Below, piece by piece: positions 6,286-63,767 of a stretch of 64,000 bases of DNA; position 1 is the stretch's first letter; every line of letters starts with the position of its first letter. Both the position numbers and the translations under genes were made by a program. Origin of the DNA: a virus; IMG/VR virus record IMGVR_UViG_3300047508_000198, positions 20,945-84,944 of that record. The stretch is one strand, 5' to 3'. Below the pieces are notes generated by a model. It had not been told where the DNA came from, ran no database searches, and was given only the letters and a program-made list of their open reading frames with translations.

Positions 6286-6422
6286 TGTTCGGCAACACAG
6301 TCCAGCTCGACCGCCCGAACGACTACGGGATCGCGATCAGGGACCTGCCCGGCAAGGTCACGCCGTGCTGGAAATTCGGCGTCTCGGTCGAGGCCATGAT
6401 GGCCGGGGCGCTCCCGGTCTGA
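6285..6422 (+). CDS. Small protein, paralog 3 (45 aa)
   Basis: MFGNTVQLDRPNDYGIAIRDLPGKVTPCWKFGVSVEAMMAGALPV; C-half similar to paralog 1. Confidence 0.55.
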   Translation: MFGNTVQLDRPNDYGIAIRDLPGKVTPCWKFGVSVEAMMAGALPV

Positions 6423-6448
6423 CCCGCGGCACGGCGCGGTCGCCGGGT

Positions 6449-8019
6449 GACGGCCGCGCCATGCCGGGCCCTGCCTTGCCGATCCGAGCTGCGCCCTGAC
6501 ACTCCTAGCCCTGCGTGGACTGCCGAGCTGCGCCGTGCCCTGCCTTAAACGGCCCAGCCGCGCCATAACTGCCGAGCCGAGCCGAGCACGGACTAGCCAA
6601 GATAACCGAGCCGCGACGGCCGGGCCATGCCAAGCTGTGCCCAGTCAAGCCACGCGATGACTGCCGAGCCATAACGCGCCCAGTCGAACCACGCCATGCG
6701 ATGACTGCCTTGCTGTCCCGAGCTGATCCTTGACCAGCCGAGCGACGACGGCCTGGCCATCCCTGCCGAGCCTGGCCGGGCCTGGCCCTGAAGATCCGTG
6801 CCAAGCCGCGACGGCCACGCCCAGCCTCGCCAAGATCAGCCGCGCCCCGACTGCCAAGCACAGCCGCGCCGAACTGCGCTGTCCAAGTGAAGCACTGCCC
6901 TGCCTATCCGGCCATGCCGCGCGATGCCTTGCCTTGCTACCCGCGCTATCCGCGCCGCGCCTATCCAGCCAGGACCGGCGGCGCCATGCTACGCGATGCC
7001 TCACGACAGCACGCGATACCGCGCCAGCCATGCCATGCCGCGCCTCGCTATGCCGCCCGTGCGCTCCCAGGCCTAGCCATGACGGCCTGGCCATATCTGG
7101 CCATGCCACGCCTTGACCAGCCACGCACTGAACAGCCGTGCGCTAACTGCCTCGCCGCGCCGCGCCAAGACCGACCAGGCCTTGCCAAGCCGGGCCTTAA
7201 CGGCCTCGCCATGCCCTGCCGTGCCTCGCCAAGCGATGCCTAGGCTGCCGTGCCGAGACGAGCCTGTCCCTGACGAGCCCGGCCTCACCTTGGCGGCCAA
7301 GCCAAGCCATGCCCAGCCTCGCCAAGCCTCGCGAGCCTGACCCCGCCCTATGCTGCCCTGGCGAACCCAGCCTGGACTGCCACGCCGTACCCAGCCGAGT
7401 CGCGCAGAGCCTTGCACCTCCTGCCACACCTGGCCGAGCGGCCCTCGCTGTCCCAGCCGGGCAACGCCTCGCCATGCGCCGACAGCCTTGCCGAGCCGAG
7501 CCGCACTCAGCGCAGCCCTGCCAACCCGATCCTGGCCCTGACGGCCGAGCCCAGCTGTGCCAAGCCGTGACTCGCCTCGCCAAACCCGGGGGCGCCATGC
7601 CATGACGGCCCTGCCGAGTTGCGCAATGCCGAGCGATCTGTGCCGCCCAAGCCAACCATGCCTTCCGGCCTTGCCCAGCGCTCCATGCCGTACCCTCCAT
7701 GACGGCCTTGCTGCGCACAGCCAGTCCATGCCAAGCCCCGCATCGCCTCGCCATGACTGCGTTGCCCCGCCCGACCTGGACTGGACAGGCCTCGACTGCC
7801 TCGCCCGGCCTCGCCTAGCCTGGCCTTGACCCGCCATGCCTTGCGTCAACGGCCTTACCCCGCCGGGACGGGCTCCGCTCCGCCTGGATCAGCCCCGCCT
7901 TGCCTCGACTGCCTCGCCTGGCCCGGCCTCGCCAAGCCGTCCTTGCCGGGCCTTGACTGCCACGCCTTGCCATGCCGATCCGGAACGCGCCCAGCCTACG
8001 AAGCCGAGCCTTGGCTATC
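6449..8019 (-). repeat. GGY-NN pentamer array 1 (orphan; candidate guide-RNA array)
   Basis: Plus strand shows RCC-NN pentamers punctuated by GACTGCC/GACGGCC/AACTGCC (e.g. 6659, 6703, 6747, 6810, 6849, 7540, 7604, 7794); roughly 25-30 units; no credible CDS. Confidence 0.85.
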
Positions 8020-8024
8020 TAAGT

Positions 8025-17761: not shown

Positions 17762-18025
17762 ATGAGGCCGGCCCAGCCGCCCTTCCTCGGCGGCGACAAG
17801 GCCGAGGTGGTCGAGCACGACCCGGCCACCCGGCGGCCGGTAGCGGGCGGCAAGGTCATCCCGGTGACCGTCGTCGACCTGACCGACGGCGACTTCACCT
17901 GGCTGTTCATCCGGGTCCGGATGCCGGACGGCGGGCACGCCGTGTTCTGGCGGAACTCGCGCTTCCTGCGCTGGCCGCAGATCGAATGCCGGTGGCGGCT
18001 GGAGGCGGTCAGCGATGCCAGCTGA
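17762..18025 (+). CDS. Hypothetical protein
   Basis: Operon packing. Confidence 0.55.
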   Translation: MRPAQPPFLGGDKAEVVEHDPATRRPVAGGKVIPVTVVDLTDGDFTWLFIRVRMPDGGHAVFWRNSRFLRWPQIECRWRLEAVSDAS

Positions 18026-18302
18026 GCCGGACCTGAGCGCCATCCGGGAGGCGCTGGCCATGGCCGGCTACCACAACGGCCGGGTCCAGTCCTCCGCCAT
18101 GCAGGCCACGATCTTGCTGAGCGCCTACGAGGGGACGATCGCCGACGACGAGGTGCCGCTGTGCCCGCCCGGCGACCCGGCCTGGTTCCAGCAGGCCGTC
18201 ACCGTCCTTGAACAGGCTGACCAGGAATGCGCCCGGCTCAAGGTGCAGCTCCTCACCGCCCAGCTCCGGATCCTCCAGCTGATGCTCGCGGGCAAGCCCG
18301 AT

Positions 18303-18331
18303 TTGGAGTTATCAAGGTTTATTGATATTCT
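18303..18331 (+). promoter_or_regulatory. Early promoter with operator, inside an open frame
   Basis: TTGGAG-17 bp-TATTCT; operator 18310-18327. Confidence 0.8.
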
Positions 18332-18365
18332 GGTGCCAGACACCGAGACACACCAGGAGACACCG

Positions 18366-19097
18366 ATGACCACAGGACCCGCCCCCAAGCTGCTCGACCG
18401 GGTACGCAAGCTGCTCGCCAAGGCCGAGGCCGAGGGCGTCACCCCGCCGGAGGCCGAGGCCCTGACCGCCAAGGCGGCCGAGCTGATGGCCCGCTACGGC
18501 ATCGACCGGGCCCGCCTCGGCGCACACTCGCAGCAGGACCGGCCCGGCAACCGGATCATCGACATCGACAACCCGTGGGCCCAGGTCCGCGCCCACCTGC
18601 TGGCCGGCCTGGCCGGGGCGATGAACTGCCAGTGCGTGCTGCTGAGCACGAGCAAGCCCGGCGCCCGGATCCACGTCTTCGGCTACGCCTCCGACCTGGA
18701 GCGCGCCGACATCATGTACACCTCGCTGCTGCTCCAGATGGCCAGCGCGCTGCGCAAGACGGCCGTCCCGATTGGCGTCCGCAGCGTCCGGGCCTGGCGC
18801 CGGAGCTTCCTGCTCGGCTTCGTCACCGCGGTCATCCTCCGGGTCAAGTCAGCCGAGGAACGCGCCCGCGGCGTGGCCAAGACCGAGGACTACGGCAAGG
18901 ACGGGCCGAGCACCGCGCTGGTGCTGGCCGACCGCGCCGTGGTCATCCGCACCCAGCTGCAGCAGGCCTACCCGACCACCCGGCGAACCCGGATCACCTA
19001 CTCCGGCCGCGGCTACAGCTCCGGCTACGCCCAGGGCCAGCGGGCCGACATCGGCCAGTCCGGGCTGAAGTCCACGCGGGCCCTGGGCCGGGGCTGA
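18366..19097 (+). CDS. DUF2786-like protein (frame also open from 18015)
   Basis: LLDRVRKLLAKAE...EAEALTAKAAELMARYGID, WRRSFLLGF, GYAQGQRADI; own AGGAG RBS and promoter. Confidence 0.8.
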   Translation: MTTGPAPKLLDRVRKLLAKAEAEGVTPPEAEALTAKAAELMARYGIDRARLGAHSQQDRPGNRIIDIDNPWAQVRAHLLAGLAGAMNCQCVLLSTSKPGARIHVFGYASDLERADIMYTSLLLQMASALRKTAVPIGVRSVRAWRRSFLLGFVTAVILRVKSAEERARGVAKTEDYGKDGPSTALVLADRAVVIRTQLQQAYPTTRRTRITYSGRGYSSGYAQGQRADIGQSGLKSTRALGRG

Positions 19098-19582: not shown

Positions 19583-20260
19583 ATGACCACGTACCTGACC
19601 CTGGAGCAGGCCCGCGAGGCCGCCGCCGACGCGTGGGCCCTCGGCGAGCTGATCGGCGTGCCGTACGGGCGCTGGTCGGGCAAGTGCCACGAGGTCTCGT
19701 TCCAGCTGCTGTCCACCGGGCGATTCGGCCCTGGGCGCGTCGCCCGGGGCTGGTCCCCGGCCGTCATCGGGCAGCACAGCTGGATCGTGCTCGGGCCCGA
19801 CGTCTACGCCTCCGACGCGGTAATCGTCGACCCCACCATCACGCCGTACCTGCGCAAGCACGGCATGGCCGGGACCAACCGACCAGGCGGCCTGCCGGAC
19901 ATCCAGGTGGAATACGCCCACGACCTGAGCCACCGGGCGCACGGCCACGGCTCGATCTGGGAGGGCCAGAACAAGCCGTGCCCGGGAGGCGGCCCGATCA
20001 TCGAGCTGACGCCCGGCTTCGAGCTGTCAGAAGCCGCGAAGTTCTTCCTGAGCGAGGACATCCTCGGCCCGCTAGACCGGCGCGGCTGGGGCCAGCTCGC
20101 CAACGGGCCCATGCAAGAGTGGCCGGCCGCGGAGATCATCAGGGCGATGTACGACACGCCTGAGCTGAAGATGCTGGTGCCGGTCGACATCATCGGCATG
20201 CTGACCGATCACAATCCCGGCAAGTGCTACCTGACCGAAGACCTGGAGCTGAGACCATGA
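19583..20260 (+). CDS. Hypothetical protein, possible transglutaminase/papain-like C-H-D triad
   Basis: GKCHEVS...QHSWIV...IVDPT. Confidence 0.6.
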   Translation: MTTYLTLEQAREAAADAWALGELIGVPYGRWSGKCHEVSFQLLSTGRFGPGRVARGWSPAVIGQHSWIVLGPDVYASDAVIVDPTITPYLRKHGMAGTNRPGGLPDIQVEYAHDLSHRAHGHGSIWEGQNKPCPGGGPIIELTPGFELSEAAKFFLSEDILGPLDRRGWGQLANGPMQEWPAAEIIRAMYDTPELKMLVPVDIIGMLTDHNPGKCYLTEDLELRP

Positions 20261-20838
20261 AAGCCGAGCGGCGGATGAAGCCGGAGTGGGGGATCACGCT
20301 CGATGGCGTGTGGATCCCCTACTCCATGCTGGAGGAGCTGGCCGACCAGGGCGAGTGGGATTCCCAGCTCGGGCCCGGCTCCGCCTACATCCGGCCGAAC
20401 CGGGACCAGCAGCGGGTCCTGGTCGCGCACCAGCTGGCCGTCAAGGAGACCCGCGGCGGGCTGCACCGCGGCCCCGGGCTGCAGGCCCTCATCAGCGCCG
20501 TGGAGTTCCCCTCCTTCGCCCAGATGTCCACCGGAGCCTACGTGGCCCGGCCTCCCGCCCCGGAGATCGTCCAGGCCCGCCAGTGGCTCACCGGGACTGA
20601 CCCGGAGGAGCTGGCGGAGTGGTGTGAGGGCTGGACCTACACCGGCACCCAGCACGGGCACACCAGCCCGCCCTGGGCCGAGCACACCTGCCTGAACCTG
20701 GAGGTCCGCGAGAACAGCCCGAAGGGCCACGCCGACCCGGGCGACTGGATCGTCCGGTACGAGGACGGCACCTACACGATCATCCCGCCGGGGGAGTTCA
20801 CCGCGAGCTTCGACCCGTACCCGGGTAACGGTTCGTGA
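20257..20838 (+). CDS. Hypothetical protein
   Basis: C-terminal VQARQW...ADPGDWIVRYEDG..F..FDP, a common phage motif. Confidence 0.65.
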   Translation: MKAERRMKPEWGITLDGVWIPYSMLEELADQGEWDSQLGPGSAYIRPNRDQQRVLVAHQLAVKETRGGLHRGPGLQALISAVEFPSFAQMSTGAYVARPPAPEIVQARQWLTGTDPEELAEWCEGWTYTGTQHGHTSPPWAEHTCLNLEVRENSPKGHADPGDWIVRYEDGTYTIIPPGEFTASFDPYPGNGS

Positions 20839-21224
20839 GTAAACGTGAGTTCACCACCTGCACCCCGGACACGCACGGGGCCACCGGCAACCGGGTCTGG
20901 GACGTCGACTTCCGGAGCTGGCGCTGCCGGGGCTGCGGGCACCGCTGCGCCACCAACGGCCGGAAGCCGAAGCAGACCCGGTACATGTGGCCGTGGAAGT
21001 GGCCGCGCGAGCTGGCCCGGCGCGCGTGGGCCCGGACGGTCACCGACCCGCCGCCGGAGCCTCGCCTCCGCCGCCCGCGGTCATTACCTCAGCTGGGGCT
21101 GGATCGTCCTGCCGGTCGCCTGCGGGATCCTCGGCGCGGTGCTCTGGACCCTGCTGTGATCAGGCGATCGGGCCGCCCGGTCCCCGGCCGTACACCCCGC
21201 CCAGCGCCACCGAAATGCCGATGA
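20835..21224 (+). CDS. Hypothetical Zn-ribbon protein (3' end uncertain)
   Basis: GTGA overlap; WRCRGCGHRC; the tail overlaps a convergent gene. Confidence 0.4.
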   Translation: MSKREFTTCTPDTHGATGNRVWDVDFRSWRCRGCGHRCATNGRKPKQTRYMWPWKWPRELARRAWARTVTDPPPEPRLRRPRSLPQLGLDRPAGRLRDPRRGALDPAVIRRSGRPVPGRTPRPAPPKCR

Positions 21225-21339
21225 AAACGATGATGGACGCCAGGGCGTGGATCACGGTGATGTGACCGAACCACACCACCACGCCCCAGATGACGATGAT
21301 GATGCCGACCAGGATGGACACGACCCAGACGTTCCTCAT
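21160..21339 (-). CDS. Small two-TM membrane protein (59 aa)
   Basis: MRNVWVVSILVGIIIVIWGVVVWFGHITVIHALASIIVFIGISVALGG...; GGAGG RBS; below ORF-track cutoff. Confidence 0.6.
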   Translation of the reverse strand: MRNVWVVSILVGIIIVIWGVVVWFGHITVIHALASIIVFIGISVALGGVYGRGPGGPIA

Positions 21340-21349
21340 GACATGCCTC

Positions 21350-22459
21350 CTACAGCACGGCCAGCTCTGCTGCCTCGCCGAGCATCCCGGCCCCGGCAGC
21401 AGCCCCGCCGCCGGCGCCGGGAATCTTGTTGATCAGGGCCTTGCCCAGGCCGTACTCGCCCAGGCCCATGCCGTGGCCGCCGTCCCCGCCGCTGTCGCCG
21501 GGACTGGCGTTAGTGCCCGCGCTGGGCGCCCAGGGCTCGTCGCTTATCACGCTGCTGGCCATGTCGGCCTGGCGCAGGTAGGAGCCGACCACGCGGCGCG
21601 CCACCCGGCGGCACTCCGACGGCGCCAGGTACGGGTTGGAGGCCTGCACCGTGGCAGCGACCGCCTCGACCTGACGGCGCACCGGGTCCTTGCGCGCGGC
21701 CGTGACGGCCTGGTCGGGCGTCGTGTCGTACCCGGCCGTGCCGGTGCCGCCCTGCAGCCCGGTGCCCGCTGACGTCGCCTGGGTGCCCGACTGCAGGCCG
21801 CCGGGCTTCATGCCGTCCGGGGTCGAGGTCGCGCCGCCCACGCCCGCGGGCAGGCCCGCGCTCATCGGCGCACCGGAAGGCGGCGAGCCCGAGGTCACGT
21901 CCGCGGTCGCGCGCATGCACAGGCAGGCGCCCGGCTTGTCCTTGCAGCTCTTGCACCGGCCGCTCTTCTTGGTGAGCCTGCTGCCGCACCGGCACAGGCC
22001 CGCGGTGGCGCCCATCTCCGGCGCCGGGATCTCGGGAGCCTGCGGGGTGACCACCTGGGGCGCCGGGCCGCCAGGAGCGCCCTGGGGGATCTCGGCGTAG
22101 CCGTGGCTGTAGTCCGGGCCCTCGTCGTGCTCGTAGCCCTCAGCGGGCCCTGAGCCGAAGCTCTGGCCGGCCTGCAGCACCGGGGCCACCGGGTCGACAC
22201 CCTCGGGCAGCGCCTCCTTCAGCAGGGCGTAGCGGCGCCGGGCGGTCTCTTCCAGCTCCTCGGCGGGCAGGCCGCACGCGGCGGCTACCCGCTCGATCCG
22301 CTCGGCCGCAAAGGCCAGCCGGTGCTCCAGCTCGCGAGCCGAGCGGGACTGGAACAGGAACGCGTAGACCGGCAGCATCTCGGCGTCGGCCCGGTCCAGG
22401 CTTGCCTCGCGCGCCTCCAGGTCGTGATCGGCGCTCGCCTCGTGCCACAAATCCGACAT
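21350..22459 (-). CDS. Probable head-associated/scaffold-like protein
   Basis: GGAGG RBS; helical N-terminus, G/P/A linkers, Cys cluster, RQA/xTA motifs. Confidence 0.7.
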   Translation of the reverse strand: MSDLWHEASADHDLEAREASLDRADAEMLPVYAFLFQSRSARELEHRLAFAAERIERVAAACGLPAEELEETARRRYALLKEALPEGVDPVAPVLQAGQSFGSGPAEGYEHDEGPDYSHGYAEIPQGAPGGPAPQVVTPQAPEIPAPEMGATAGLCRCGSRLTKKSGRCKSCKDKPGACLCMRATADVTSGSPPSGAPMSAGLPAGVGGATSTPDGMKPGGLQSGTQATSAGTGLQGGTGTAGYDTTPDQAVTAARKDPVRRQVEAVAATVQASNPYLAPSECRRVARRVVGSYLRQADMASSVISDEPWAPSAGTNASPGDSGGDGGHGMGLGEYGLGKALINKIPGAGGGAAAGAGMLGEAAELAVL

Positions 22460-22499
22460 GCTCTGCCTCCCTGGGCGTCCTACTTCTTCCCAGGGGGCA

Positions 22500-24565
22500 G
22501 AGCCATGCCTGCCGCGCCATGCACTGCCGATCTATGCCGAGAGCCGCCATACGATGCCGAGACGGCCACGCCATGCCGAGCCTTGCCGGTCCTTGCGAGG
22601 CCGCGCCGTGCGATGACTGCCACGCCTCACCCAGCCCCGCTTCGCCTCTCCAGGCAAGGGATGCCATGCGGCGACTGCCGGGCCTGGCCGGGCCGTGCCA
22701 TACCGAGCGATGACTGCCGGGCCTGGCCTAGCCATGCTGCGCCCTGCCTGGACTGGACAGGCCACGCCGAGACTGCCATGCAACGCCGGGCCCAGCTGCG
22801 ACTAGCCGGGCCTAGACAGGACTGCCAGGCCAAGCCCACCGTTGCCACGCCACGCGTGTCCGGCCTGGCCATGCCGAGCCGTACCCTGACACGCCTAGCC
22901 AACCGAGCCCTGCCGTGCCTCGACTGCCCAGCCCGGCCTTGCCCAGACGTCAATGCCAAACCTAGCCAGGCGGGCCGTAGCCTGCCGAGCAAAGCTGTGC
23001 TGCGCCTACGCTAGCCGAGCCGAGCCCTGCCTAGACCGCCCGGCCAGGCCACGCCGTGCCCAGCACTGGCTAGCCGTGCCCGGACAAGCCGCGACCGTCC
23101 ATGCCCCGACTGCCTCGCCGAGTCATGCCTCACCCGGCCGCGCCCTGCGCTGACTGCCCCGCAACGCCTATCCCAGCCATCCCGCGCCGCGACGGCCTCG
23201 CTGAGACGAGCCTCGCTATGCCGCGCCCTGCGCTAACTGCCTCACCTCGATTTGACGCGCCTGGCCCCGCCGAGCCACGCCGTCCCTTGACTGCCAGGCC
23301 ACGCCGTACCCTGACTAGCCCAGACGGGCCTCGCCTTGCCTCGACTGCCGTGCCACGCCCCGCCTAGCAAAGCACACGATGCCCCGCGATGCGCCGACTG
23401 CCCTGCCTTCCGTGCCGGGCCGAGCATCCCGGGCCCAGCCATTCCGAGCCCCGCGTTGCGACGACTGCCCGGCTAAGCCAGGCCTTGCAACGCCGGTCCT
23501 TGCCAGGCCTCTCCCGGCCTGGCCCAGACTGCCTTGCCGAGCCAGGCCCCGCCGAGCTGCGCCTACCCTGGCCTAGCCAATCCAGCCATGCCGAGCCGAG
23601 CCGCGCCAAGCCAAGATTGGCCTAGCCCTGACTGCCGGGCCAAGCCACGCGACGACATACTGCGCCCTGACCTGACTGCCTGGCTGAGCCGTACCGAGCC
23701 AGGCCGGACCATGCCTCGACTGCCGAGCCACGCCATGACCTGGCTGCCGATCCTCGCCTGGACGCGCTGCGCCGTAGGTAGCCCGGCCTGTCCATGGCAG
23801 CCGAACCGGGCTGTGCCGCGCCTAGCCACTCGGTGCCCCGCGCCGCCTCGACTGCCGCGCCTAGCCACGCCTTGCCTAATCACCCATGCCGCGCCGCGCC
23901 ACGACGGCCGGACCATACTGCGCCGTCCATGCTGGGCAACACCGGGCTGTGCCGCACGATGCCCTGACTGCCTGGCCGAGCCGTGAAGCCCCTGCTTCGC
24001 CTTGACGGCCGAGACCGGCCGAGCCATGCACTGACTACAACGCCGCGCCTTGACTGCTGTGCCAAGCCTTGCCCTGCCCGGACAAGCCACCCGATGCCTT
24101 GACTGCCTCACCACACCTTGCCTCGCCCAGCCTTCCCAGACCGCGCCTTGACTGCCGTGCCGGGCGACGCTATCCAAGCCATGCCCTGCTCAGCCAACCC
24201 AGGCCGAGCCTTGACGGCCTCGCCCCGCTGTACGAACAGCACCATGCGCCGACGGCCACGCCGAGCCGGGCTGCTCCGGGCCAAGCAACGACCAGCCCTG
24301 AGCTGCCAAGACTGCCCTGCCTAGCCGCGCAAAGCCACTCCTTGCCCCGCCTCGCCGCGAGACACCACGCGACGCCGAGACTGCCGCGCTAAGCCAAACC
24401 ACGCCCGTCCCAGCGGTCGATGCTTCGCCATGCCTTGACGGCCCTGCACTGCCGCACCCCGACCAGCCCAGACTGGCCTCGCCCAGGCTGGCCGGGCCTG
24501 GACTGCCTGGCCGCGCCAGGCCGCGCCGTGACGCAACCAGCCACGTCACGGCCCGGCCTGACGGC
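22500..24565 (-). repeat. GGY-NN pentamer array 2, directly downstream of the RAMP-like operon (candidate guide-RNA array)
   Basis: About 35 units delimited by GACTGCC/GACGGCC on plus strand; spacings mostly 39/44/49/54/59/64 nt; e.g. 23674 GACT-GCCTG-GCTGA-GCCGT-ACCGA-GCCAG-GCCGG-ACCAT-GCCTC. Confidence 0.9.
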
Positions 24566-25042
24566 TTAGGCCTCGTCGCCAACGGCGAGAGGGCCGTCAT
24601 CTTCCTCGACATCCATGGTCCGGCGGACCATGGCGATGAACTCGCTGAACATGCGGTAGCGGCGCTGCATGTTCCGCCAGTCCACTTCCATCTGGCGCCG
24701 CACCTGGGCGGTCAGCACCTCATCCCGCTGGATCTCGTCCAGCGGCACGTACGAGCGCCCCGGCACGCCAGCGGCGTGCACCGAGTGGAACACCCGGATG
24801 GACTGCACCTCACTGCGCTTGTCGATGTACTGCTCGCGCACCACGCGAACCAGCTGCCGGGCCTGCTGCAGCCGGTACTTGCGCGCGGCGACATCGTTGT
24901 TCCACTCGAACCGGCTGTGCAGCGGGTGACCCTCGGCGGCGGCGGCCGAGACAATGGCCGCCGCCGTCAGGATGCCGCCGTTCTCCTCGCGGATCTGCAG
25001 CAGCTCGGTTTCGAGCTGGCTAGGAGCCTGATCCGGCGCCAT
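24566..25042 (-). CDS. Accessory protein of the RAMP-like/array locus
   Basis: ELLQIREENGGILTAAAIV..HPLHSRFEWNNDVAARKYRLQQARQLVR; overlaps the 3' end of the RAMP-like gene; array starts at its stop. Confidence 0.8.
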   Translation of the reverse strand: MAPDQAPSQLETELLQIREENGGILTAAAIVSAAAAEGHPLHSRFEWNNDVAARKYRLQQARQLVRVVREQYIDKRSEVQSIRVFHSVHAAGVPGRSYVPLDEIQRDEVLTAQVRRQMEVDWRNMQRRYRMFSEFIAMVRRTMDVEEDDGPLAVGDEA

Positions 25043-26012
25043 CGCCGGCCTCAGCAGCCATCGCAGCGCGGTCCTCCGCGGTCAGGCCGCGGTCGGGACC
25101 GGGCTCCTTGTCCTTGACCGGCTTGGCCTCGGGCTCGGGCTCGGGCTCCTCGGCCAGGACCTCCGGCGGGGCGTCCAGCTCGGCGAAGTCGTCCATCGTC
25201 AGATGGTCTTCCTCGCCGTAGACGTCGTAGTCCACCGAGTCCAGCAGGTACATCGGGTCCAGCTCGCGGACCACGGTGACGGCGTTGCGGCCGTCGGCGA
25301 TCCGGAACGTGCCGAATTCCCCGTTCCGCTCGGGCCGCCACTCGCCGACGCCGACATTGCCGCCGCCCGCCTCGATCAGCGAGACCACCGAGTCCCGCTC
25401 CAGCAGGTTGGAGGTGTAGCCCACCATCAAGGTGGCGCTCCACCGGTAGAAGCAGCCGCGGTACCGCAGGTCCGCGGGGTGGTTGACGCCGGCCAGGCGC
25501 ACGTAGTCCTCGCGCATCCGGGGGCGGCCGTCGAGCACGACCATCCGGCCGGCCTCGCTCGGCACGCTGACGCCGTAGAACGTCAGGAACTGGCGAAGCT
25601 CGGTCATCTTCACCTGCTTGCCCCAGAACCGCCCGGCCCCGATAGTCGCCATCTTGAAGGCCATGGCGGGCAGGCCGAACAGCACCTCCTCGGTCGCCGG
25701 GTCGACGCCCGCACGGTAGAGGCTGGCCAGGTACTCGCGGTGCGGGTCACGCTTCTCCGGCTGGCGCTTCTTGCCCTGCTGGGCGGCCAGCATCTGGGCC
25801 TTGGCCTTCTCGGAGAACCGGCTGACGATCAGCGGCGCGGTGCCGATGATCCGGATGGCGAGCAGCTCCTGCCGGATCGGCTTGATGGTCAGCGCCGCGG
25901 CCGGAGCCGGGGCAGATGCCGTCGTGCGCCGCTTGACGGCTGGCTTGGCGTCGGCTCCGTTCGTACCGGTGGCGGTAGCCGCCGGGTCATCCTTAACCTG
26001 TGTTCCAGGCAT
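25020..26012 (-). CDS. Stand-alone RAMP/Cas7-like RNA-binding protein (Vipr-like effector candidate)
   Basis: IRIIGTAPLIV first strand, GLPAMAFKMA helix, ADLRYR..F..WSATL, terminal Gly-rich loop GGGNVGVGEWRPERNGEFGTF; order of motifs parallels RAMP proteins. Confidence 0.7.
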   Translation of the reverse strand: MPGTQVKDDPAATATGTNGADAKPAVKRRTTASAPAPAAALTIKPIRQELLAIRIIGTAPLIVSRFSEKAKAQMLAAQQGKKRQPEKRDPHREYLASLYRAGVDPATEEVLFGLPAMAFKMATIGAGRFWGKQVKMTELRQFLTFYGVSVPSEAGRMVVLDGRPRMREDYVRLAGVNHPADLRYRGCFYRWSATLMVGYTSNLLERDSVVSLIEAGGGNVGVGEWRPERNGEFGTFRIADGRNAVTVVRELDPMYLLDSVDYDVYGEEDHLTMDDFAELDAPPEVLAEEPEPEPEAKPVKDKEPGPDRGLTAEDRAAMAAEAGDGAGSGS

Positions 26013-26090
26013 GGTTCAGTCCCTCCTCGGGGGAGTGAATCGTGTCGCGGCCCCCGCCTCCTTACCAGGTCGGGGGCCGCCTTGGCCTTG

Positions 26091-26131
26091 ACACTATACT
26101 TACGAGCACGCACTGTCAAAGAACCTTGATA
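26091..26131 (-). promoter_or_regulatory. Promoter of RAMP-like operon with overlapping operator
   Basis: Minus strand TTGACA-17 bp-TAGTGT; operator variant TATCAA-GGTTCT-TTGACA (26114-26131) overlaps the -35. Confidence 0.7.
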
Positions 26132-26153
26132 TTTCTGCTACGATGGCTGACGT

Positions 26154-26290
26154 CCCCGCCCGGACACCCGCCCCTAAGGCCACGGGGCGGTTCGCCAGGT
26201 GACGCGCGTAAGCGGCAAGCGTGGTCCGTAGCCGAAACCGGAGCCGTATAGGTAGTTGGGCCAGCCTCAGTCTGGCCCGTCCGGGCGGGG
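26154..26290. ncRNA. Candidate structured non-coding RNA
   Basis: 12-bp closing stem CCCCGCCCGGAC/GTCCGGGCGGGG with internal hairpins at 26168-26190 and 26258-26278; TG-C-TACGAT extended -10 just upstream on plus strand. Confidence 0.4.
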
Positions 26291-26323
26291 CCCAGTCTCT
26301 AGGAACATTGATACTCTAGGCCC

Positions 26324-26614
26324 ATGTGCTGCTGGACTCACGAAGACCTGAGCTACCCGGGCGCGCTCGCCTCCACGGACGTGGACGACCGCTGCCGGTG
26401 CGAATGCCTCCCGCCGTGCCGGCGCCGTGCCACGGCCGAGGACGTGCGCTGCGACGTATGCGGCGGGCGCGCCTCCTCCGACCCGGCCCAGGGAGGAGGG
26501 CGAACGGCCCAGGTGGAGCCGCAATCGTTCGAGCGCTCGGTCACCGAGCGCGAGTACCCGCTCTCCATCACCCTGCCCGGCGCGCTGCCAGCGACGCCTG
26601 GACAACCCTTCTGA
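26324..26614 (+). CDS. Small Cys-rich hypothetical protein
   Basis: Follows AT-rich TACTCT box, possibly leaderless; CRCEC..C..CDVC. Confidence 0.4.
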   Translation: MCCWTHEDLSYPGALASTDVDDRCRCECLPPCRRRATAEDVRCDVCGGRASSDPAQGGGRTAQVEPQSFERSVTEREYPLSITLPGALPATPGQPF

Positions 26615-29600
26615 ACGCCACCGCCTGCGGCTTGTGCATCGGGTCGCCCTGGTAGGCGTCGGTGTTGCTGTAGCCGCTGCTGTCCGCGGTGTTCGGCGCG
26701 ACCGGGGCCAGGTCGGCGTTGCCCGGCTGACGGCCGCTGAAGGTCTGGGTGAACGGGCCGCCCGGCTGCGGCGGCTCCTGCGGCTGGCCGAGCACGTCAT
26801 CAGGCGCCACCGGGCCCGTGCCCTTCGGCTCGGTGCCCTGGTACGGAGGCGGGCCGCCGGAGCGGGCCGGGTCCTCCCCGCCGCCCATCACCGGCGGCGT
26901 GCCGGGACCGTTCAGCGGCGTGCTGCCCATCGGGTCCGGGCTCGCGCCGGGACCGTCGGTGATCAGGTCGACCGAGGTGGCCGCGGTCTTGCCCTGGCGC
27001 TGCGCGTGGTCCTCCAGCCCGTTCCACGTCGCGGATCCCGCCTGAGCCGTCTGCCAGTAATGCGACCCGGCCGCCTCGGCGTTCGCATAGCCCCTGGCCC
27101 TCAGGTGGTCGATCGCATCCTGCCCGGTTTCCGGCCAGCGCTTGTGTCCCATAGCTATAAAGATAGGGTAGGTGCCGGTCGCCGACGGCTGCCAGCGGCC
27201 CCGCTCGGCCAGCAGGAGCTTGCGGGTGAACCCGGCGTGCGCGTCGAGCCGCTGAGCCAGCACCGGGTGCCGGGCCGCCTGGTCCTGGTGCGCCACCACC
27301 CACCGGGCCTGGATGCCGCCCGGCCGGTCGGCGATCGCCGCGTACAGGCCGGCCTCGAAGGCCGGGGAGCCCTGACCGACCAGGCGGCGGCCGGGCTGCC
27401 AGCGGGCCGCGAACCGGTAGCCCTTGGCGAAGCCGGGGTCGTCGACCGCGGAGCGGGTGACGAAGCTGGCCGAGACGGTGAACGCGGCCTTGCCGAACTC
27501 CTTGCGCTTGCGCTCCAGGTAGGCGTGGCGGCGTACGCCCTCGTGGCCGAAGTAGGCGTCGTGGACGCCCTGCCCGTGGGTGCGCCGTACGTAGTCACGG
27601 AACCGGCTGTAGTCCTCGTCGGTCGGCTCGCGCTCGCCGGCGTCCGGGTCCCGCCGCCACAGGTCGTGCATGACATGCTGCGGGATCGCCGACCGCACCG
27701 ACGGGTCCACGTAGTCGTAGGAGTCGTGCTCGTAGGGCCGCTGGTAGTCCCCCTGGCGCTGCAGCGAGGCGTGGCTCACCTGGAAGGCGCGCTGCGCGTC
27801 GGCCGCGTTCCCCGCCTGGCCTGCGTCCCCGCCCATGCTGCGCGGAACATCCATCTGGCCAGGGTCAGGAGGACGGCCACTGTAGCCCACCGAGTAGCCC
27901 TGGACGTACGGGCTGACCCGCGAGCTGTTGTCGCTGAACGTCGGGTGCTCCCCGGCTGCCGCGTCATCCTGGCCGTCCTTGACGCCCTGGCCGTAGTCAC
28001 CGCTGCCCTCGTTCGAGGACCACGGGTCCGGGCTGGTCTGCGCCGAGTTGAACGGCGCGGTTCCGTCGTCGGTGGTCTCGTGCGGCTTGGTCAAGATGTC
28101 GGCCTGGCGCCGCAGCGAGCCCATGTACTGGCCGCCGCCGGGCTCGTTGGAGAAGGCGCGCTCCCCGGGGATGCGGCTGGTGACGTCCAGGTCGTGCTGC
28201 GCCTTCACGGTGGAGTACACGCCGAGGTAATGCGCGTGCAGGTCCGGGCGGCCGGTCATCTCGCCGTAGGCCTTCTTGTCGACCGGCTCGCGGCCGTTGG
28301 TGGCGTCGATCACGCCGCGGGTCTCGTTGTGGCCGCGCAGGTACTGCCCGTGCCCCTTGCGGCCGAAGACGTAGCTGTCCTTGTGCGGCGGCTTCTTGCC
28401 CTCCATGGCGTCCATCCGGCCGAACATCCGCAGCGCCGTGTTGGAAGGCGTCATCGAGCTGCGGGCCGCAGTCGCGCCCTTGGGCCGGGCGCCGTCCGGG
28501 CCGGTCTCCCACTCGCCCTGGAACTCCGGGTTGAGCGGGAACGCGACCTCCTGGTTCAGCTCGTCGGCCTGCGGCGTGGGGACGTCGTGGGAGTCCACCG
28601 TCTGCTGGATCTGGGGCAGCTGCGAGGCAGCCTCGTGCTGACGGTCAGAGGCGGCGCCCTGGTCGGGCATCTCCTGGCGCTGCTGCTCGCTGTACACGTC
28701 CCACTGGTGCCGGGGCTGCTCCTCCTCCGCGTGGGCGGTGCGGTGCTGGCCTTCCACCTGGTGCTTGATCTTCCCGCAGTAGGCCTCGGGGTCGTTCTTG
28801 TCGGAGTTGGCCGCGACGCACGCGGCGAAGTCCTCGTACCCGGCGAACGGGGCGCCCTTCGTCAGCTGCCCCTGGCGGGGCTCAGGAAAATTTGGCGGCC
28901 TGCCGGCCCCGGCCCCGGTCTTGTCCCAGGGCTTGCCCTTGCCCTTCTTCTTGCCCTTGCCCTTCTTCTTCTTCTGGCCGAAGGCGTCCTGCTCCTCATC
29001 GTCCTCGGCAAACGGGTTCTTGCCGCCCGCCAGGACCGGGCGCACCCGGGCCAGGTACCCGTGCAGCCAGGCGATCTCGTCCTCGCTGCGAGCCTCGGCC
29101 CGGAACGCCGCGGCGATCGTCCGGTGATGGGCGGCCACCTTCTTCAGGTCCCCGGTGCGCAGCACGGCGGTGCCCTCGTCCGCGCCCTGGACCTCGAAGT
29201 ACGCCTGGCGGCGGAAGTCCTCGGCGTTCATCAGGTAGCCGACCGCGACCGAGGCGGTGTGCTCATGGCCGTTGCCGCAGGACTGCTCGGGCCAGTGCAG
29301 CGAGCCGCACCGCTCGTGGTAGGGCGCGTCAAACGTGTCGACATCCTGGTCCGAGCCGATGTGCCAGCGGAACCCGTCCTGGTCCGGGCCGGTGTAGGCG
29401 GAGACGCGCAGCGCAGCCTGGCGCTCGGCCGTCGGGCGCGGCGGGGCGCCCTCGTCCATGTCCTGGTCCTGGCCCGGGGCAGGCGTAGAGGACGGCTGGC
29501 TGGGGGCCGCGCCCGGCGGGGTAGTGGGGATCTGGCCGGGCGGGCCGAGCGGGATCTGGGCGTAGGAGTCGGCGGTGTCCATCGACGTGGTGTGCTCGTC

Positions 29601-34836: not shown

Positions 34837-37800
34837 TCAAGGAACCATAGCAGGCTTCGCCTCGCGCTCGATGCCAAGTTCGCTGTAATCGGCCGCGCCG
34901 CGGCCGGAGTGCTTGATCGTGACGTGGTGGCCGAGCGGGTGGTATTCCCAGCTGGGGCTGGTGCGCTCCGGCTTCTGCGGGACCAGGTAGCCGGGGTTGC
35001 CGCTGTGGTCGACGTACGCGCCCTCCAGCTTGACGTGAGCACCCGGCCGGAAACGCACCTCGGCCTCCCAGTCCATGGACCGGTGGATGCCCCGCCACAT
35101 CGGGTGCGACCGCGGGAACGCCTGCTTCTCGTGGTCCTCGACGACGCCCTGCCAGACGACCCGGCGCTTGCCGGGCTCGCCGGTCGGGTGGGTGATCAGC
35201 GCATCAGGGTTGGCCGTCCAGTGCATGCCGACCGACCCGGCATCCTTCGGGTGCTCGGTCTCATCGCGCATCTCGCCGCGCCAGACCCGGGTGCCGGGCG
35301 GCGGGTTCTTCGCCAGGTCGAACATCTCGCGGCGGTGCACGCCCAGGTCCTCGGTGTCGAAGGCGCGCTGCTGCTCCGGGGGCAGGCTGCCCGGGGTGAT
35401 GACCGCGGTCCTGGCCGTGCGGAAGTCCTTCACCAGCACCGGGACCGGCTTGTCGTACCCGGCCTCGTTCAGCGCGAAGGTCCGGTGATGGCCGTTCCAC
35501 AGCCAGGACTGGTCATCATCGTGGACCAGGGTGATCGGATGGCTGGGCGGGTAGCTATGCGTGTCGCCGCTCATCCCGCCGTGCAGGGACGGCTTGTAGC
35601 CCTGCTGGCGGATCTTCTCAGCCAGGTCGCTGATGTGCCGGCGCCCGGCGGGGTCCTGCATGCGCCAGGCCTCCCGCTGCGCGTACGGCAGCAGGTCGCG
35701 CGGGTGGATGCGCTCTACGCGCTGGGTGTAGAGGGCCGCCGCGGTCTTGTCCACCCGCGAGCGGCGCACCGTGTCCCAGGTCTTGGCGAAGCCCGGGTGC
35801 AGCGCGCCGGTCTCCTTCAGGCCGTCCACCTCGTGCTTGTCGAACCAGGCGTGGCCCTCGGCCTCGAAGCTGGTGCTGCCGCCGCCCTTCGGCTCGAACC
35901 GCTTGCCGAGGTCGGCCACGTGGGTGTCCGCGAACCAGCCGCCGTGATCGTCGCGCACGGTGTGATGGTGCTTCATCCGGGGCAGCGGGCCCATCTCCTC
36001 GGCCGCCTCGCGCCGGGCCGCAGCGTAGGAGTCTTCCCCCTCGTGCTGCAGCGCGCCGCCGGGCAGCGCCCAGGTGCCGCCGTGGTCGGTGAAGCCGGAG
36101 GAGGTCCGCTTCTGCAGCAGGTACCGGTGGTGGCCGTCGGGGGCCCGGTGCCGCAGCAGCAGGAATGAGGCCCCGTGCGGGCCCCAGTGCTCATGGCCCT
36201 GGTCGCATTCGACGTAGCCGGTGTCAGGAGTAAAATCGTCACCGGCATTGGCCATATCAATAATCATAGCCTTCTTCGGATACCCCTTGCCGGGCACCTC
36301 TTCCAAAACCCTGACCGGGGCTTTCGTGCGGAATGCTCCCGGGCCGCCATCTTCAGAGTCATCCTCCACCGGCCCGCTGGGCCGGACCCGGTACACGCGC
36401 GGCGTGTCGTCGGAGTATTCGTCATCCGGACTAGGGGCCGCATGAGCATAACCCGCGGCACGCTCCTGGCTCGTGGTGAGGTACACATGCTCCATGACAG
36501 AGCCGCTGACTCCCCCGCGGTGGCCGGGAGTCAGGTCCTGGCCGGGATGGAAGAATTTCCTCGTCCCGTGAAAAAACTCCTGCGGCCCGGCCGAGGCCTG
36601 GCGCGGATACCCCTTGCCGGTACCCGGCTGGTTCCACCAGGGGTTCGGGTCCTCCGGCGAGGCACCGCGCTCGTGGAGGCTGACAACCCGCAGCGGGTGC
36701 TCAGACCGGTGGCCCATGCCGTCCGGGTCCGGCTCGACCGGGCCGGTCGGCTCCACCTGGTAGATGCTGTACGTCTTGGCCTTGTTGCGGACGGCGGCCA
36801 GCCCGCCGAACGTCCGCGCCACTGAGTCAGTAGCCGATAGATATACATGCTTCTTGCTCGACACGTCATGGCCCTTGTGGCCGGGCTCGATCAGGGCGCC
36901 GGGGCTGAGCCGGGCGGCGGTGCCGTGGTAGTAAGGCCCGTCGTAGGCCGGGGCCGCGGCGGTCTTGCCCGGGTGGTGCATGTAGTCCTCGGGCAGGAAC
37001 TCCGACGGCGCGATGTCGGCCGGGATGTGGTTGCCGTGCCGCTCCTTCACCTCGGGGCCCTTAGATGCGCCGGGCAGCTTGTACTTGCGCCGGTTCGGGA
37101 TCCAGCTGTGCCGGTGGCCGATCACCGGCACCGCCTCGTGCCCGGCCTCAGCTGCCCAGGCCAGGCGGCTGTTGCCCTCGGGCACGTAGGCGTAGTTGGA
37201 CTTCGGGTCCCAGTTGACGTGGATCGGCTGGCGGATGCCCTCGTCTCTCACGGACTGGACATTGGCCGCCCACTCCTCGGGCGTGTGCCGCGGCGCCATC
37301 ACCTCGCCCTCGGGGCTGCGCGAGGTACCGGGCCCGTGGTGCCACTCGCGGTGCTTCATCAGCTTGTCGGTGCGCACCCACTCCACCCGGGCCTGCTCGA
37401 ACCGCTTGCTCACCTCGGACAGGTCCCCGCCGGGCAGGATGGCCTGCTTGCGCACGCCGGGGTAGGCGCCGCCGTGCTCGGCGTGGAAGCGGCCCACCCG
37501 GTCGTACATCGGCTTATCCTCGTTCAGCTCCGAGGAGTAGCCACGCTTACCGTGCTGCCAATTCTCGTCCTCGCCCCAGAACCGGGGCTCGACCGGGTGA
37601 TGCTCGACCTCGTGCGGCTCGGGCGCGGTCTTCGGCGGGGCGATGTGCTCGACGTGGGTGGTCTCGATCTGGCTGGGCCGGGTGGCGATCGCCGAGATGT
37701 GCCGGACGTCCTGCCTGGTGTGCTCGGCGAACTCCTTGTCCCACTCGCCGTCGTAGCTGCCCTGGCCGGGCCCCTCGACCTCGTTGCCGTAGGTGATGCC

Positions 37801-44899: not shown

Positions 44900-44930
44900 C
44901 GGAAGCCTCCCTCACGGCTTCCGGGGCGTG

Positions 44931-63243: not shown

Positions 63244-63540
63244 TCATGCCGGCAGTCGCCTGCTTGCGGATGGACATAAGGCCTCCTCGGGTTGCCTCTC
63301 CTGGTCAGCGTACGCATCGGCTACCTGCTCTGCCCAGGCGTAGCCGCACGCCGAGCACCGACGGCACAGGTGCTCACCAGGCACGCGCGAGGCCGGGTCG
63401 AAGCCGCCGCAAGGCCATCTGGCATCGGCGTCCAGGACAGCGCCCGGATGCCAGACGACGGAGATCGCCTCGCCGCTGCATTTGCCGCAAATGCTTGACG
63501 GATCAAAAGGAGGGAGCGGGATGCCCTGGACTGCTGACAT
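63244..63540 (-). CDS. Zn-ribbon protein
   Basis: AAGGAGG RBS before MSAVQG; CGKC..GEHLCRRCSACGYAW. Confidence 0.6.
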   Translation of the reverse strand: MSAVQGIPLPPFDPSSICGKCSGEAISVVWHPGAVLDADARWPCGGFDPASRVPGEHLCRRCSACGYAWAEQVADAYADQERQPEEALCPSASRRLPA

Positions 63541-63547
63541 CCCGCCT

Positions 63548-63733
63548 CCTTGCCTGCCTTGCCGACCAAGCCTGAACGCACCGGGCTGAGCCGCTCCGTG
63601 ATAGACCACACCACGCCTGGACTGCCGAGCCTGGCCCCGCCGTGCACTGACCCGCCTGGACGAGCCGAGCCTTGACTGCCTCGCCTCACTACGCCAAACT
63701 GCCGATGCCCTGCCCAGCCTCGCCTCGGCTATC
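63548..63733 (-). repeat. GGY-NN pentamer mini-array 3
   Basis: GACTGCC at 63620 and 63674 (54 nt apart); RCC-NN phase; same GATAGCCRAGGC 5' end as array 1. Confidence 0.75.
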
Positions 63734-63767
63734 AATGATCTTAGTCCTTGTAGGGTTCCTCCAAACC

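What the first reader, a model, noticed from the sequence alone, without database searches (positions are those of the whole stretch)
22561..24565. Array grammar: units of 5n+4 nt, each with a unique dinucleotide string
Plus-strand punctuation motifs GACTGCC/GACGGCC lie at 22561, 22615, 22673, 22712, 22771, 22820, 23108, 23152, 23191, 23235, 23289, 23343, 23630, 23674, 23718, 24052, 24101, 24150, 24251, 24310, 24379, 24501 and 24560, among others. Most spacings are 39, 44, 49, 54, 59, 64 or 69 nt, a few one base shorter. That gives 7-13 pentamers plus a 4-nt spacer per unit. I saw no two identical units, which is unlike a slippage microsatellite. Inference: GGCAGUC marks a processing or unit boundary, and each unit encodes 14-26 specified bases. 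If one target base is skipped per dinucleotide, the skipped base could fall on codon wobble positions.
Basis: partly seen in the sequence, partly recalled or inferred. Interest (0 to 1): 0.85.

Follow-up and report, generated by a model that had tools for sequence, protein, structure and literature searches.

The report
Phage VIPR guide-RNA array (GGC-NN pentamers)
The odd five-base repeat tract is real and is the guide-RNA array of a phage VIPR system, a CRISPR-like RNA-guided DNA-silencing device first described in 2026, so it is a large new example of a known kind rather than a new kind.

Summary
Window 22497-24565 is a 2.07-kb non-coding tract of degenerate NNGCC pentamers (GGCNN on the minus, gene-sense strand), punctuated by GAC[T/G]GCC. 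Unit lengths are 5n+4, and every NN string is unique.

It is one of four such arrays in this 84.9-kb soil phage genome: about 90 units, 5.6% of the DNA. It lies directly behind two genes. The first (25020-26012) is a homologue of the SUSP1 Vipr protein (PDB 36pp), with the RNA-contacting Arg and Glu/Trp/Arg residues invariant. The second (24566-25042) is a conserved accessory gene of unknown fold.

This is a VIPR system (bioRxiv 10.64898/2026.04.26.720920). In VIPR, the Vipr protein coats GGY/NN repeats and the NN pairs read double-stranded DNA while skipping every third base. The 5n+4 grammar fits the paper's "staggered arrays" with 1-nt overlaps, of which I saw only the figure legend.

Target tests here were mostly blank. 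One guide matches motif II of UvrD/RecB/AddA helicase genes in frame: 95 places in 73 of 101 Actinomycetota genomes, against 9 for the control.

This scan has already found VIPR arrays on other DNA. Verdict: new member of a known kind.

The parts
22497..24565 (-). Array B, the finding. About 36 vrRNA-like units of GGC-NN pentamers, separated by GGC[A/C]GTC-NN. It fills the whole gap between the stop codon of the accessory gene and the ribosome-binding site of the next ORF.
25020..26012 (-). vipr homologue (330 aa, phrog_4652). The conserved core is residues about 46-240, with N- and C-terminal extensions specific to this clade.
   Evidence: The family profile hits PDB 36pp_D (SUSP1 Vipr) at E=6.5e-7. 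The single sequence hits it at E=0.0055 and this is its only PDB hit. R185, E224, W225 and R226 are invariant. PHROG assignment.
24566..25042 (-). Conserved accessory gene (158 aa, phrog_15946). It is a candidate vap; its fold and function are unknown.
   Evidence: Homologues lie next to the array or vipr in 21 of 46 loci. No hit in Pfam, NCBIfam or the PDB.
6440..8015 (-). Array A, about 28 units, directly downstream of the portal gene and 17 kb from vipr. About 9 of its guides are shared with close relatives L019 and L032.
6705..6749 (-). Guide A:1281 (9 repeats). Read on the opposite strand as NNx codons, it spells L-[F/L]-V-D-E-F-Q-D-T, which is motif II of UvrD/RecB/AddA-type helicases.
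63530..63740 (-). Array C, a short array of about 3 units near the end of the genome.
21350..22459 (-). ORF of 369 aa immediately downstream of array B. It has no known family, and it is not shown to belong to the system.

Best explanation
Array B is the main guide-RNA (vrRNA) array of a VIPR system carried by an uncultured soil actinobacterial phage. Arrays A, C and the one upstream of the window belong to the same system.

Inferred by homology to the published SUSP1 system:
- The minus strand is transcribed.
- One Vipr protomer (the product of 25020-26012) binds each GGC-NN repeat. It hides GGC and presents the two N bases.
- The 7-15 NN pairs of one unit read a double-stranded DNA target as NN-x-NN-x, skipping every third base, usually the codon wobble base.
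- Binding silences the target.

Shown here:
- The Vipr homologue, with its RNA-contacting residues conserved.
- The obligatory pairing of protein and array across many phages and prophages.
- The repeat grammar.
- Fast turnover of units between close relatives.
- Stronger conservation of NN than of the GGC scaffold in units that are retained.

Unit boundaries are not marked by a tail or pseudoknot as in SUSP1. They are marked by a one-base overlap: the last repeat GGCAG shares its G with the first repeat GUCNN of the next unit. This gives the 5n+4 lengths.

The targets of nearly all guides are unknown. One guide fits the conserved motif II of host UvrD/RecB/AddA-type helicase-nuclease genes.
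For: 1. Protein. A profile of 36 family members has one significant PDB hit, SUSP1 Vipr 36pp_D, at E=6.5e-7. The window protein alone gives E=0.0055, its only hit. The alignment puts R185 on SUSP1 R138 and E224/W225/R226 on D177/W178/R179. These are the residues the cryo-EM paper says hold G1, G2 and Y3. All four are invariant in the 36 sequences.

2. Co-occurrence. Of 44 IMG/VR loci fetched by an array pattern alone, 43 carry arrays, and 22 of them encode a homologue of the protein. Counting also the two phage loci L001 and L002, it is 24 of 46 loci. Of 27 genome loci fetched by the protein alone, 26 have a same-strand period-5 GG block within about 1 kb of the gene. Gene order varies between phages: array-vipr-accessory in DRBy19, vipr-array-accessory in UmaThurman, and vipr-accessory-array here.

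3. Grammar. Units mostly hold 8-13 repeats, against 9-16 in print. Across the related loci, 534 of 925 register breaks are 4 nt long.

4. Evolution. The portal gene of L032 is 92.7% identical in DNA, but the adjoining array is only 68-72% identical. In the 9 units retained at 80% or more overall identity, 16 of 170 NN bases differ against 47 of 255 scaffold bases. NN make up 16 of the 63 changes where 40% would be expected (one-sided binomial p=0.011).

5. Self-targeting. No hit in the phage's own genome exceeded what shuffled guides gave.

6. One guide. A:1281 under the 1-nt skip, with up to 2 mismatches, hits 95 places in 73 of 101 Actinomycetota genomes, against 9 places for the reversed-pattern control. 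One hit is exact and 13 have one mismatch. Of 13 fetched loci, 9 held a stricter version of the pattern in frame in ORFs of 668-1188 aa. The 6 of these sent to NCBIfam match the PcrA, UvrD, RecB and AddA families.
Against: - No RNA evidence. No RNA run holds this DNA, so transcription, strand and processing at GGCAG|UC are all inferred.
Sequence similarity to SUSP1 Vipr covers only the C-terminal third (about 60 residues).
- Pooled target tests were blank. In 0.5 Mb of the phage's own and related phage DNA, skips 0, 1, 2 and 3 did not differ from shuffles. In a whole 2.3-Mb Actinomycetota genome, 11 of 69 guides reached 2 or fewer mismatches under skip 1, against 60 of 414 shuffled guides.
- Single-guide target tests were mostly blank. 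Seven guide cores scanned exactly against IMG/VR gave one hit. It lies in a 50%-GC contig, has the skip base on codon position 2, and matches only 2 of 4 flanking bases. One metagenome scan gave a single 50%-GC sequence seen in two records, not in a clear ORF. Guide A:488 gave 4 hits against 4 for the control in 401 genomes. Guide B:268 gave 0 of 101.
- The A:1281 match was found after I inspected 138 translated readings by eye. Its scaffold is poor, with 4 of 9 canonical triplets, and its copy in L019/L032 is broken.
- About a quarter of all repeats have non-canonical triplets.
Confidence: 0.9

Rival explanations
1. The arrays far from vipr (A, C and the one upstream of the window) are not this phage's own weapons. 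They would be decoy or 'solo' vrRNAs that soak up or redirect the Vipr of competing phages, as reported for satellite-encoded solo vrRNAs.
For: They lie 17-38 kb from the only vipr gene in the genome. The 2026 competition preprint describes solo vrRNAs, defined as lying more than 20 kb from any vipr, that redirect a viral VIPR (passages seen). Arrays A and the upstream one have their own GTGCTAT box upstream, and the upstream array ends in a hairpin plus T-run.
Against: They use the same grammar, strand logic and punctuation as array B, and they sit in a genome that encodes Vipr. So the simplest reading is that they serve that Vipr. Array A shares guides with relatives, with NN conserved, as expected of working guides.
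Confidence: 0.06
2. The tract acts as DNA, not RNA. It would be a phased array of GCC sites bound by a phage protein for packaging, partition or replication, and the neighbouring proteins would be DNA-binding factors.
For: Period 5 is half a helical turn. One array follows the portal gene. No consensus promoter or terminator was found around arrays A and B.
Against: The neighbouring protein is a homologue of an RNA-binding RAMP-type protein with its RNA-contacting residues kept. The strong G/C strand asymmetry always puts GGC on the strand of the vipr gene in 26 of 27 protein-found loci. NN bases are conserved better than the GCC 'site' in retained units, the opposite of what a binding-site array predicts.
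Confidence: 0.02
3. The tract is protein-coding (a pentapeptide-like repeat, since 5 nt x 3 = 15 nt = 5 codons) or a slippage microsatellite.
For: Long ORFs can be drawn through it in this 70%-GC DNA. In isolated phages the equivalent arrays carry small annotated ORFs: DRBy19 gene 51 and UmaThurman gene 40.
Against: Each 5n+4 boundary breaks the frame. No frame in 6000-8000 or 22531-24566 shows the GC3 signature that every real gene here has. No two units are identical, and Tandem Repeats Finder sees almost nothing, so it is not a slippage product.
Confidence: 0.01

Closest known systems
VIPR systems (Vipr + vap + vrRNA). Reference: type II of Escherichia phage SUSP1, PDB 36pp/36pk. Sources: bioRxiv 10.64898/2026.04.26.720920, 10.64898/2026.04.26.720927 and 10.64898/2026.10.15.759431.
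   Same: - A small RAMP-like protein with a conserved G-loop (GxGxWRP) and thumb arginine.
- A second small conserved gene next to it.
- Tandem GGY/NN pentamers, 8-13 per unit, with hypervariable NN.
- Carried by a phage.
- No self-targets.
- One guide matches a coding sequence with the skip base at wobble.
   Different: - No invariable 3' tail or pseudoknot. Units abut with a 1-nt overlap (GGCAG/GUCNN).
- About 90 units in four arrays, against four vrRNAs in SUSP1.
- The protein here is 330 aa, with added N- and C-terminal low-complexity extensions.
- Sequence similarity to SUSP1 Vipr is limited to about 60 C-terminal residues.
- The host is an actinobacterium (70% GC).
'Staggered vrRNA arrays' of the same preprint (fig. 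S18). I read only the legend; the figure and data tables were not visible.
   Same: [quoted passage not shown] That is what a 5n+4 unit length means.
   Different: I could not see which VIPR type, taxa, boundary motif or array sizes the figure shows. So I could not verify that it is the same as the GGCAG/GUC boundary and the same Vipr clade.
Class 1 CRISPR-Cas backbone (Cas7 on crRNA)
   Same: A RAMP protein polymerises on a guide RNA, and a thumb periodically breaks the guide-target duplex. This is as stated in the papers.
   Different: There are no 23-50-nt repeats alternating with spacers, and no cas1, cas2 or other cas genes. The guide is read in 2-base pieces with 3 guide bases hidden per repeat.
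Bacillus TRAP binding to (G/U)AG-NN repeats in the trp leader. This is recalled from memory and was not tested.
   Same: One protein subunit per triplet, with 2-nt spacers, giving a 5-nt period on RNA.
   Different: In TRAP the spacers carry no information, there is one regulatory site, and the protein fold is unrelated. This is an analogy only.

Membership tests
VIPR system | A Vipr (minimal RAMP) protein is encoded next to the repeats. | tested here: met
   Sequence level only. The family profile against the PDB gives SUSP1 Vipr at E=6.5e-7. The single protein gives E=0.0055.
VIPR system | The residues that hold the GGY bases are present (SUSP1 R138, D177, W178, R179). | tested here: met
   They align to R185, E224, W225 and R226, all invariant in the 36 family members. 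The SUSP1 H17 position is H in most members but S in this phage's clade.
VIPR system | vrRNAs are made of tandem GGY/NN pentamers, 9-16 per RNA, with a conserved scaffold and hypervariable NN. | tested here: met
   90 units, with modal lengths of 8-13 repeats. 505 of the roughly 840 triplets are GGC or GGT, and another 94 are GTC. All NN strings are unique.
VIPR system | An accessory vap gene lies in the locus. | tested here: inconclusive
   A conserved 158-aa neighbour (phrog_15946) recurs in 21 of 46 loci. It has no detectable domain. The sequences of vap1-6 were not available for comparison.
VIPR system | The array is transcribed and processed into short RNAs that bind Vipr. | not testable with these tools
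   No RNA run holds this DNA. The consensus promoter and terminator scans were empty.
VIPR system | Guides match natural DNA targets under the 1-nt skip rule better than under other rules or than shuffled guides do. | tested here: inconclusive
   One guide (A:1281) gives 95 places against 9 for the control, in frame in helicase genes. The pooled tests show no enrichment. Nine other guides tested singly gave nothing credible.
VIPR system | There is no self-targeting. | tested here: met
   In a pooled database of the phage's own genome and the related loci, the best matches did not exceed those of shuffled guides.
VIPR type II (SUSP1-like) | Each vrRNA has an invariable 3' tail with a pseudoknot. 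| tested here: not met
   Units abut directly. The only constant element is the 7-nt GGC[A/C]GTC. So this is not type II. Which of types I or III-VII it belongs to could not be decided, because the type tables and figures were not visible.
CRISPR array | Direct repeats of 23-50 nt alternate with spacers of similar size, with cas genes nearby. | tested here: not met
   The period is 5 nt. Pfam searches of 16 large ORFs of the window, including both genes upstream of the array, gave no Cas family; the whole window was not scanned. Rfam found nothing.
Slippage microsatellite | Identical short units in tandem. | tested here: not met
   NN differs in nearly every repeat. Tandem Repeats Finder reports only a 47-nt piece.

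The most novel reading that the evidence does not exclude
This phage clade runs VIPR as a massively multiplexed counter-defence weapon. About 90 tail-less guides would be cut from four arrays at a one-base-overlap boundary (GGCAG|UC) by an unknown measuring or processing step. At least some guides would be aimed not at rival phages but at conserved catalytic motifs of host genes, such as the RecB/AddA/AdnB-UvrD helicase-nucleases that destroy linear phage DNA.
Probability: 0.15. Interest if true: 0.7.

Novelty: new member of a known kind. Interest (0 to 1): 0.4.

Why it matters
VIPR was reported only in 2026, and its experimental work is on E. coli and Pseudomonas systems.

This locus shows the same machinery in high-GC actinobacterial phages, in a much larger form: four arrays, about 90 guides and no tail. 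The same protein-plus-array module also sits unannotated in well-studied isolated phages, namely Mycobacterium Cheoctovirus phages such as DRBy19 and Brocalys, Gordonia phages UmaThurman and ODay, and Pseudomonas LESphi2. In some of them the array is annotated as a small hypothetical ORF. Those culturable phage-host pairs would let three things be tested at the bench: the staggered-array processing, the skip rule, and the idea that some guides hit host repair or defence genes.

For the scan itself, this is a correct re-derivation of a published code from raw sequence, not a new class.

Tried and rejected
Readings I considered before the PDB hit and then dropped:
- A Rho or RNA-binding-protein sponge.
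- Two-tier G-quadruplex DNA or RNA.
- A replication origin with iterons.
- A Chi-like array.
- A primase-site array.

None of these explains the invariant link with a Vipr homologue.

Searches that gave nothing:
- Rfam gathering search: 0 hits.
- Literature searches for pentanucleotide or 5-bp repeats in actinophages: nothing relevant.
- The accessory 158-aa protein: no Pfam, NCBIfam or PDB relative.
- ESM Atlas for a family member: only unnamed viral clusters, and no model held.
- RNA evidence: 'no RNA holder listed'.
- Consensus promoter and terminator scans around arrays A and B: 0 promoters, and one weak terminator-like site inside array A.
- The listing of cluster members gave no organism names, so the host stays unknown. 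The source is a soil metagenome.

Target hunting:
- Pooled local search in 0.5 Mb: no enrichment.
- Pooled search in one complete 2.3-Mb Actinomycetota genome: no enrichment.
- Seven exact IMG/VR scans: one hit, judged to be chance.
- One metagenome scan: two records of one sequence, judged to be chance. My rough expectation is about 0.1 chance hits, which is an inference from an assumed collection size.
- Guide A:488 in 401 genomes: 4 against 4 for the control.
- Guide B:268, which I read as a Walker-A 'GxGKTHLL' motif from memory: 0 of 101 genomes at 3 or fewer mismatches. That reading is unsupported.
- Other motif-like translations (DEAH-like readings of guides 0:616, A:488 and B:948) were not tested and should be treated as pareidolia until tested.

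An experiment I began and abandoned: testing guides of the mycobacteriophage arrays against other mycobacteriophages. I fetched Brocalys and listed guides of DRBy19, Brocalys and UmaThurman. I stopped because the phage collection cannot be scanned with gapped patterns.

What I could not see: supplementary tables and figures of the VIPR papers (type classification, taxonomic distribution, fig. S16-S18). They may already list this clade, its boundary motif or its targets.
Full report
**What is there.** The window is 70%-GC phage DNA. It carries a portal gene, a DnaE-like polymerase, a RecA-like gene and giant ORFs with Arr-like ADP-ribosyltransferase and NUDIX domains. It belongs to a single 84,944-bp contig from a soil metagenome.

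Between 22497 and 24565 the plus strand reads as degenerate NNGCC pentamers, which is GGCNN on the minus strand. Both flanking genes lie on the minus strand. GCC recurs at lag 5 between 14 and 33 times per 500 nt in the tract, against a background median of zero. The same construction occurs at three other places: window 6440-8015, window 63530-63740, and genome 7040-7860 on the opposite strand, before the window. Together the arrays cover 4,794 nt, 5.6% of the genome.

**Check of the observation.** Twenty of the 23 listed positions are exact GAC[T/G]GCC, and three are one-mismatch variants. The array holds 30 exact motifs. Of the 29 spacings, 14 equal 4 mod 5 (39-69 nt), 10 equal 3, 4 equal 2 and 1 equals 1. 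A dynamic-programming parse shows that the shorter classes contain extra, weaker register breaks, nearly all of them also a 4-nt element such as GGAC or GGAT. So every boundary shifts the pentamer lattice by -1.

GGCAGTC is almost confined to the arrays: 41 of its 48 genome-wide occurrences lie there. The parse yields 90 units of 5 or more repeats, mostly 8-13 repeats long, and all have different NN strings. No frame in the tract shows the GC3 signature of the real genes. Tandem Repeats Finder and Rfam see essentially nothing.

**What it is.** A blastn search of 20001-28000 against isolated phages hit short tracts in Mycobacterium Cheoctovirus phages and in Gordonia phage UmaThurman. In DRBy19 the hit is a 270-nt NNGCC array annotated as a 54-aa hypothetical gene.

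A pattern of the punctuation plus four pentamers found 44 IMG/VR contigs, and 43 of them carry arrays of 200-1,700 nt at 53-70% GC. tblastn then showed that the two genes upstream of array B have homologues beside these arrays. The 330-aa ORF has homologues in 24 of 46 loci, and the 158-aa ORF in 21. Their order relative to the array varies. Both are PHROG families of unknown function, with no Pfam or NCBIfam hit.

The 330-aa family is large: at least 1,374 proteins, all labelled 'hypothetical'. It has a highly conserved core of about 190 aa. A profile of 36 members has one significant match among PDB sequences, 'SUSP1 Vipr protein' 36pp_D, at E=6.5e-7. The window protein alone finds the same chain as its only hit, at E=0.0055.

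That name led to three 2026 preprints on VIPR, Viral Interference Programmable Repeat. What I read of each:
- 10.64898/2026.04.26.720920: the Results, the Discussion and parts of the Methods.
- 10.64898/2026.04.26.720927: two Results sections.
- 10.64898/2026.10.15.759431 and 10.64898/2026.10.21.760802: passages only.

**Fit to the published system.** The papers describe the following.
- A Vipr protein of about 20 kDa, RAMP-like.
- An accessory vap gene.
- vrRNAs of 9-16 GGY/NN repeats.
- One Vipr protomer binds per repeat, hides GGY and presents NN.
- The NN pairs read double-stranded DNA while skipping every third base, usually the wobble base.
- Binding silences rival phages, satellites or prophage regulators.

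The locus here has each sequence-level component. In the HMM alignment, SUSP1 R138 (thumb) and D177/W178/R179 (G-loop) fall on R185 and E224/W225/R226, all invariant in the family.

As an independent check I fetched loci by the protein alone. Twenty-six of 27 carry a same-strand period-5 GG block within about 1 kb of the gene. The loci come from Microbacterium, Streptomyces, Nocardia, Micromonosporaceae, sphingomonads and various MAGs. The genome has only one vipr and one accessory gene.

**The 5n+4 grammar.** Unlike SUSP1 vrRNAs, these units have no tail or pseudoknot. They abut at GGC[A/C]GTC-NN. This can be read as a last repeat GGCAG and a first repeat GTCNN sharing one G.

In the Cheoctovirus arrays the corresponding element is GGCA followed directly by GGCNN, again GGCAG overlapping the next repeat. 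Across all related loci, 534 of 925 register breaks are 4 nt long, and run lengths peak at 8-13 pentamers.

The first VIPR preprint mentions 'staggered arrays with overlapping vrRNAs'. Its legend says that vrRNAs derive from 1-nt overlapping positions. That is the same arithmetic. I could not see the figure, so identity of the motif and clade is an inference.

**Evolutionary evidence that NN carries the information.** Contigs L019 and L032 are close relatives: the portal is 95% identical in protein and 92.7% in DNA. The array behind the portal gene is only 68-72% identical, about what the shared scaffold alone would give. Yet some units persist. Twelve of 69 guides find a match of 80% or more NN in other arrays, against 9 of 345 shuffled guides. 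One unit has 20 of 20 NN identical while its scaffold triplets differ. In the 9 units retained at 80% or more overall identity, 16 of 170 NN bases and 47 of 255 scaffold bases differ (binomial p=0.011). This fits guide turnover with selection on NN.

**Targets.** This is the weak part.
- Pooled searches with skips of 0-3 nt against shuffled guides showed no enrichment, either in 0.5 Mb of the phage's own and related phage DNA or in a complete 2.3-Mb Actinomycetota genome.
- Exact 1-nt-skip patterns of seven guide cores against IMG/VR gave one hit. I judge it to be chance: the contig is 50% GC, the skip base falls on codon position 2, and the flanks match 2 of 4.
- One metagenome scan gave one sequence present in two records, also unconvincing.

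Following a lead from earlier notes of this scan, I translated all guides as NNx codons. Guide A:1281 (window 6705-6749), read on the opposite strand, spells L-[F/L]-V-D-E-F-Q-D-T. I recognised this from memory as motif II of UvrD/Rep/RecB helicases.

With up to 2 mismatches, the pattern hits 95 places in 73 of 101 sampled Actinomycetota genomes, against 9 places for the reversed-pattern control. One hit is exact and 13 have one mismatch. Nine of 13 fetched loci held a stricter version of the pattern in frame in ORFs of 668-1188 aa. The exact hit and two of the one-mismatch hits I fetched lie in proteins of about 1,150-1,190 aa that match the AddA and RecB models; other hits are in PcrA/UvrD-like or RecB-like proteins. 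These are 6 proteins scanned.

Because I found it by inspecting 138 readings, I put the chance of such a coincidence at roughly one in a hundred. That figure is my estimate, not a computed value. Two other motif-guided guesses failed: A:488 gave 4 against 4 for the control, and B:268 gave 0 of 101. So one guide plausibly points at host helicase-nuclease genes, and the rest have no known target.

**What could not be done.** No RNA run holds this DNA, so transcription and cutting at the punctuation remain inferred. The VIPR type cannot be assigned without the papers' figures and tables.

**Verdict.** This scan has already met VIPR arrays in other genomes. This is a new and unusually large member of a known kind, with staggered arrays and no tail. 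Its practical interest is that the same module sits unrecognised in culturable Mycobacterium, Gordonia and Pseudomonas phages.

Noticed in passing
L001 3042-3206 (Mycobacterium phage DRBy19 gene 51); L002 2626-2949 (Gordonia phage UmaThurman gene 40): Small 'hypothetical protein' genes annotated in isolated phages lie inside GGC-NN arrays next to a Vipr homologue. They are probably vrRNA arrays rather than coding genes.
   Followed up: partly
phage records (27 Mycobacterium, 5 Gordonia, 3 Pseudomonas including Medea1 and LESphi2, 1 cyanophage): 36 isolated-phage records encode homologues of the 330-aa Vipr-like protein, all annotated as hypothetical. In ODay and Ecliptus the gene sits at about 10 kb rather than in the early region.
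   Followed up: no
window 34837-40134, 40103-44911 and 987-5942 (minus strand): Three giant ORFs of 1,600-1,770 aa with Arr-like rifampin ADP-ribosyltransferase domains. One also has NUDIX and a weak ParB-N match.
   Followed up: no
window 63768-63792 and about 63918-63940: Short exact tandem 8-mers (GTCCCCAG x3, and GGGGACAT repeats on the other strand) close to the end of the contig. They could be a terminal or regulatory repeat.
   Followed up: no
window 8015-8035 (minus), 63735-63765 (minus); genome 7016-7030 (plus): GTGCTAT, an extended -10-like box, precedes array A and the upstream array. GATAGCC[A/G]AGG precedes arrays A and C. The upstream array ends in a GC hairpin plus T-run at genome about 7862-7895. 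Array B has no such box and abuts the accessory gene's stop codon.
   Followed up: partly
window 25020-25300 (C-terminal 90 aa of the 330-aa protein): This phage's clade of Vipr homologues has an acidic C-terminal extension with a conserved LT-x-DDFAELD-x-PPE segment. Members of about 210 aa lack it.
   Followed up: no
window 18015-19097 (plus): A 360-aa ORF with DUF2786 and DUF7168 domains.
   Followed up: no
arrays of all four loci in the genome: GTC is the second commonest scaffold triplet. It occurs 94 times against about 60 unit starts, so it also occurs inside units. About a quarter of repeats have non-GGY triplets (AGC, CGC, GGA, TGC).
   Followed up: no
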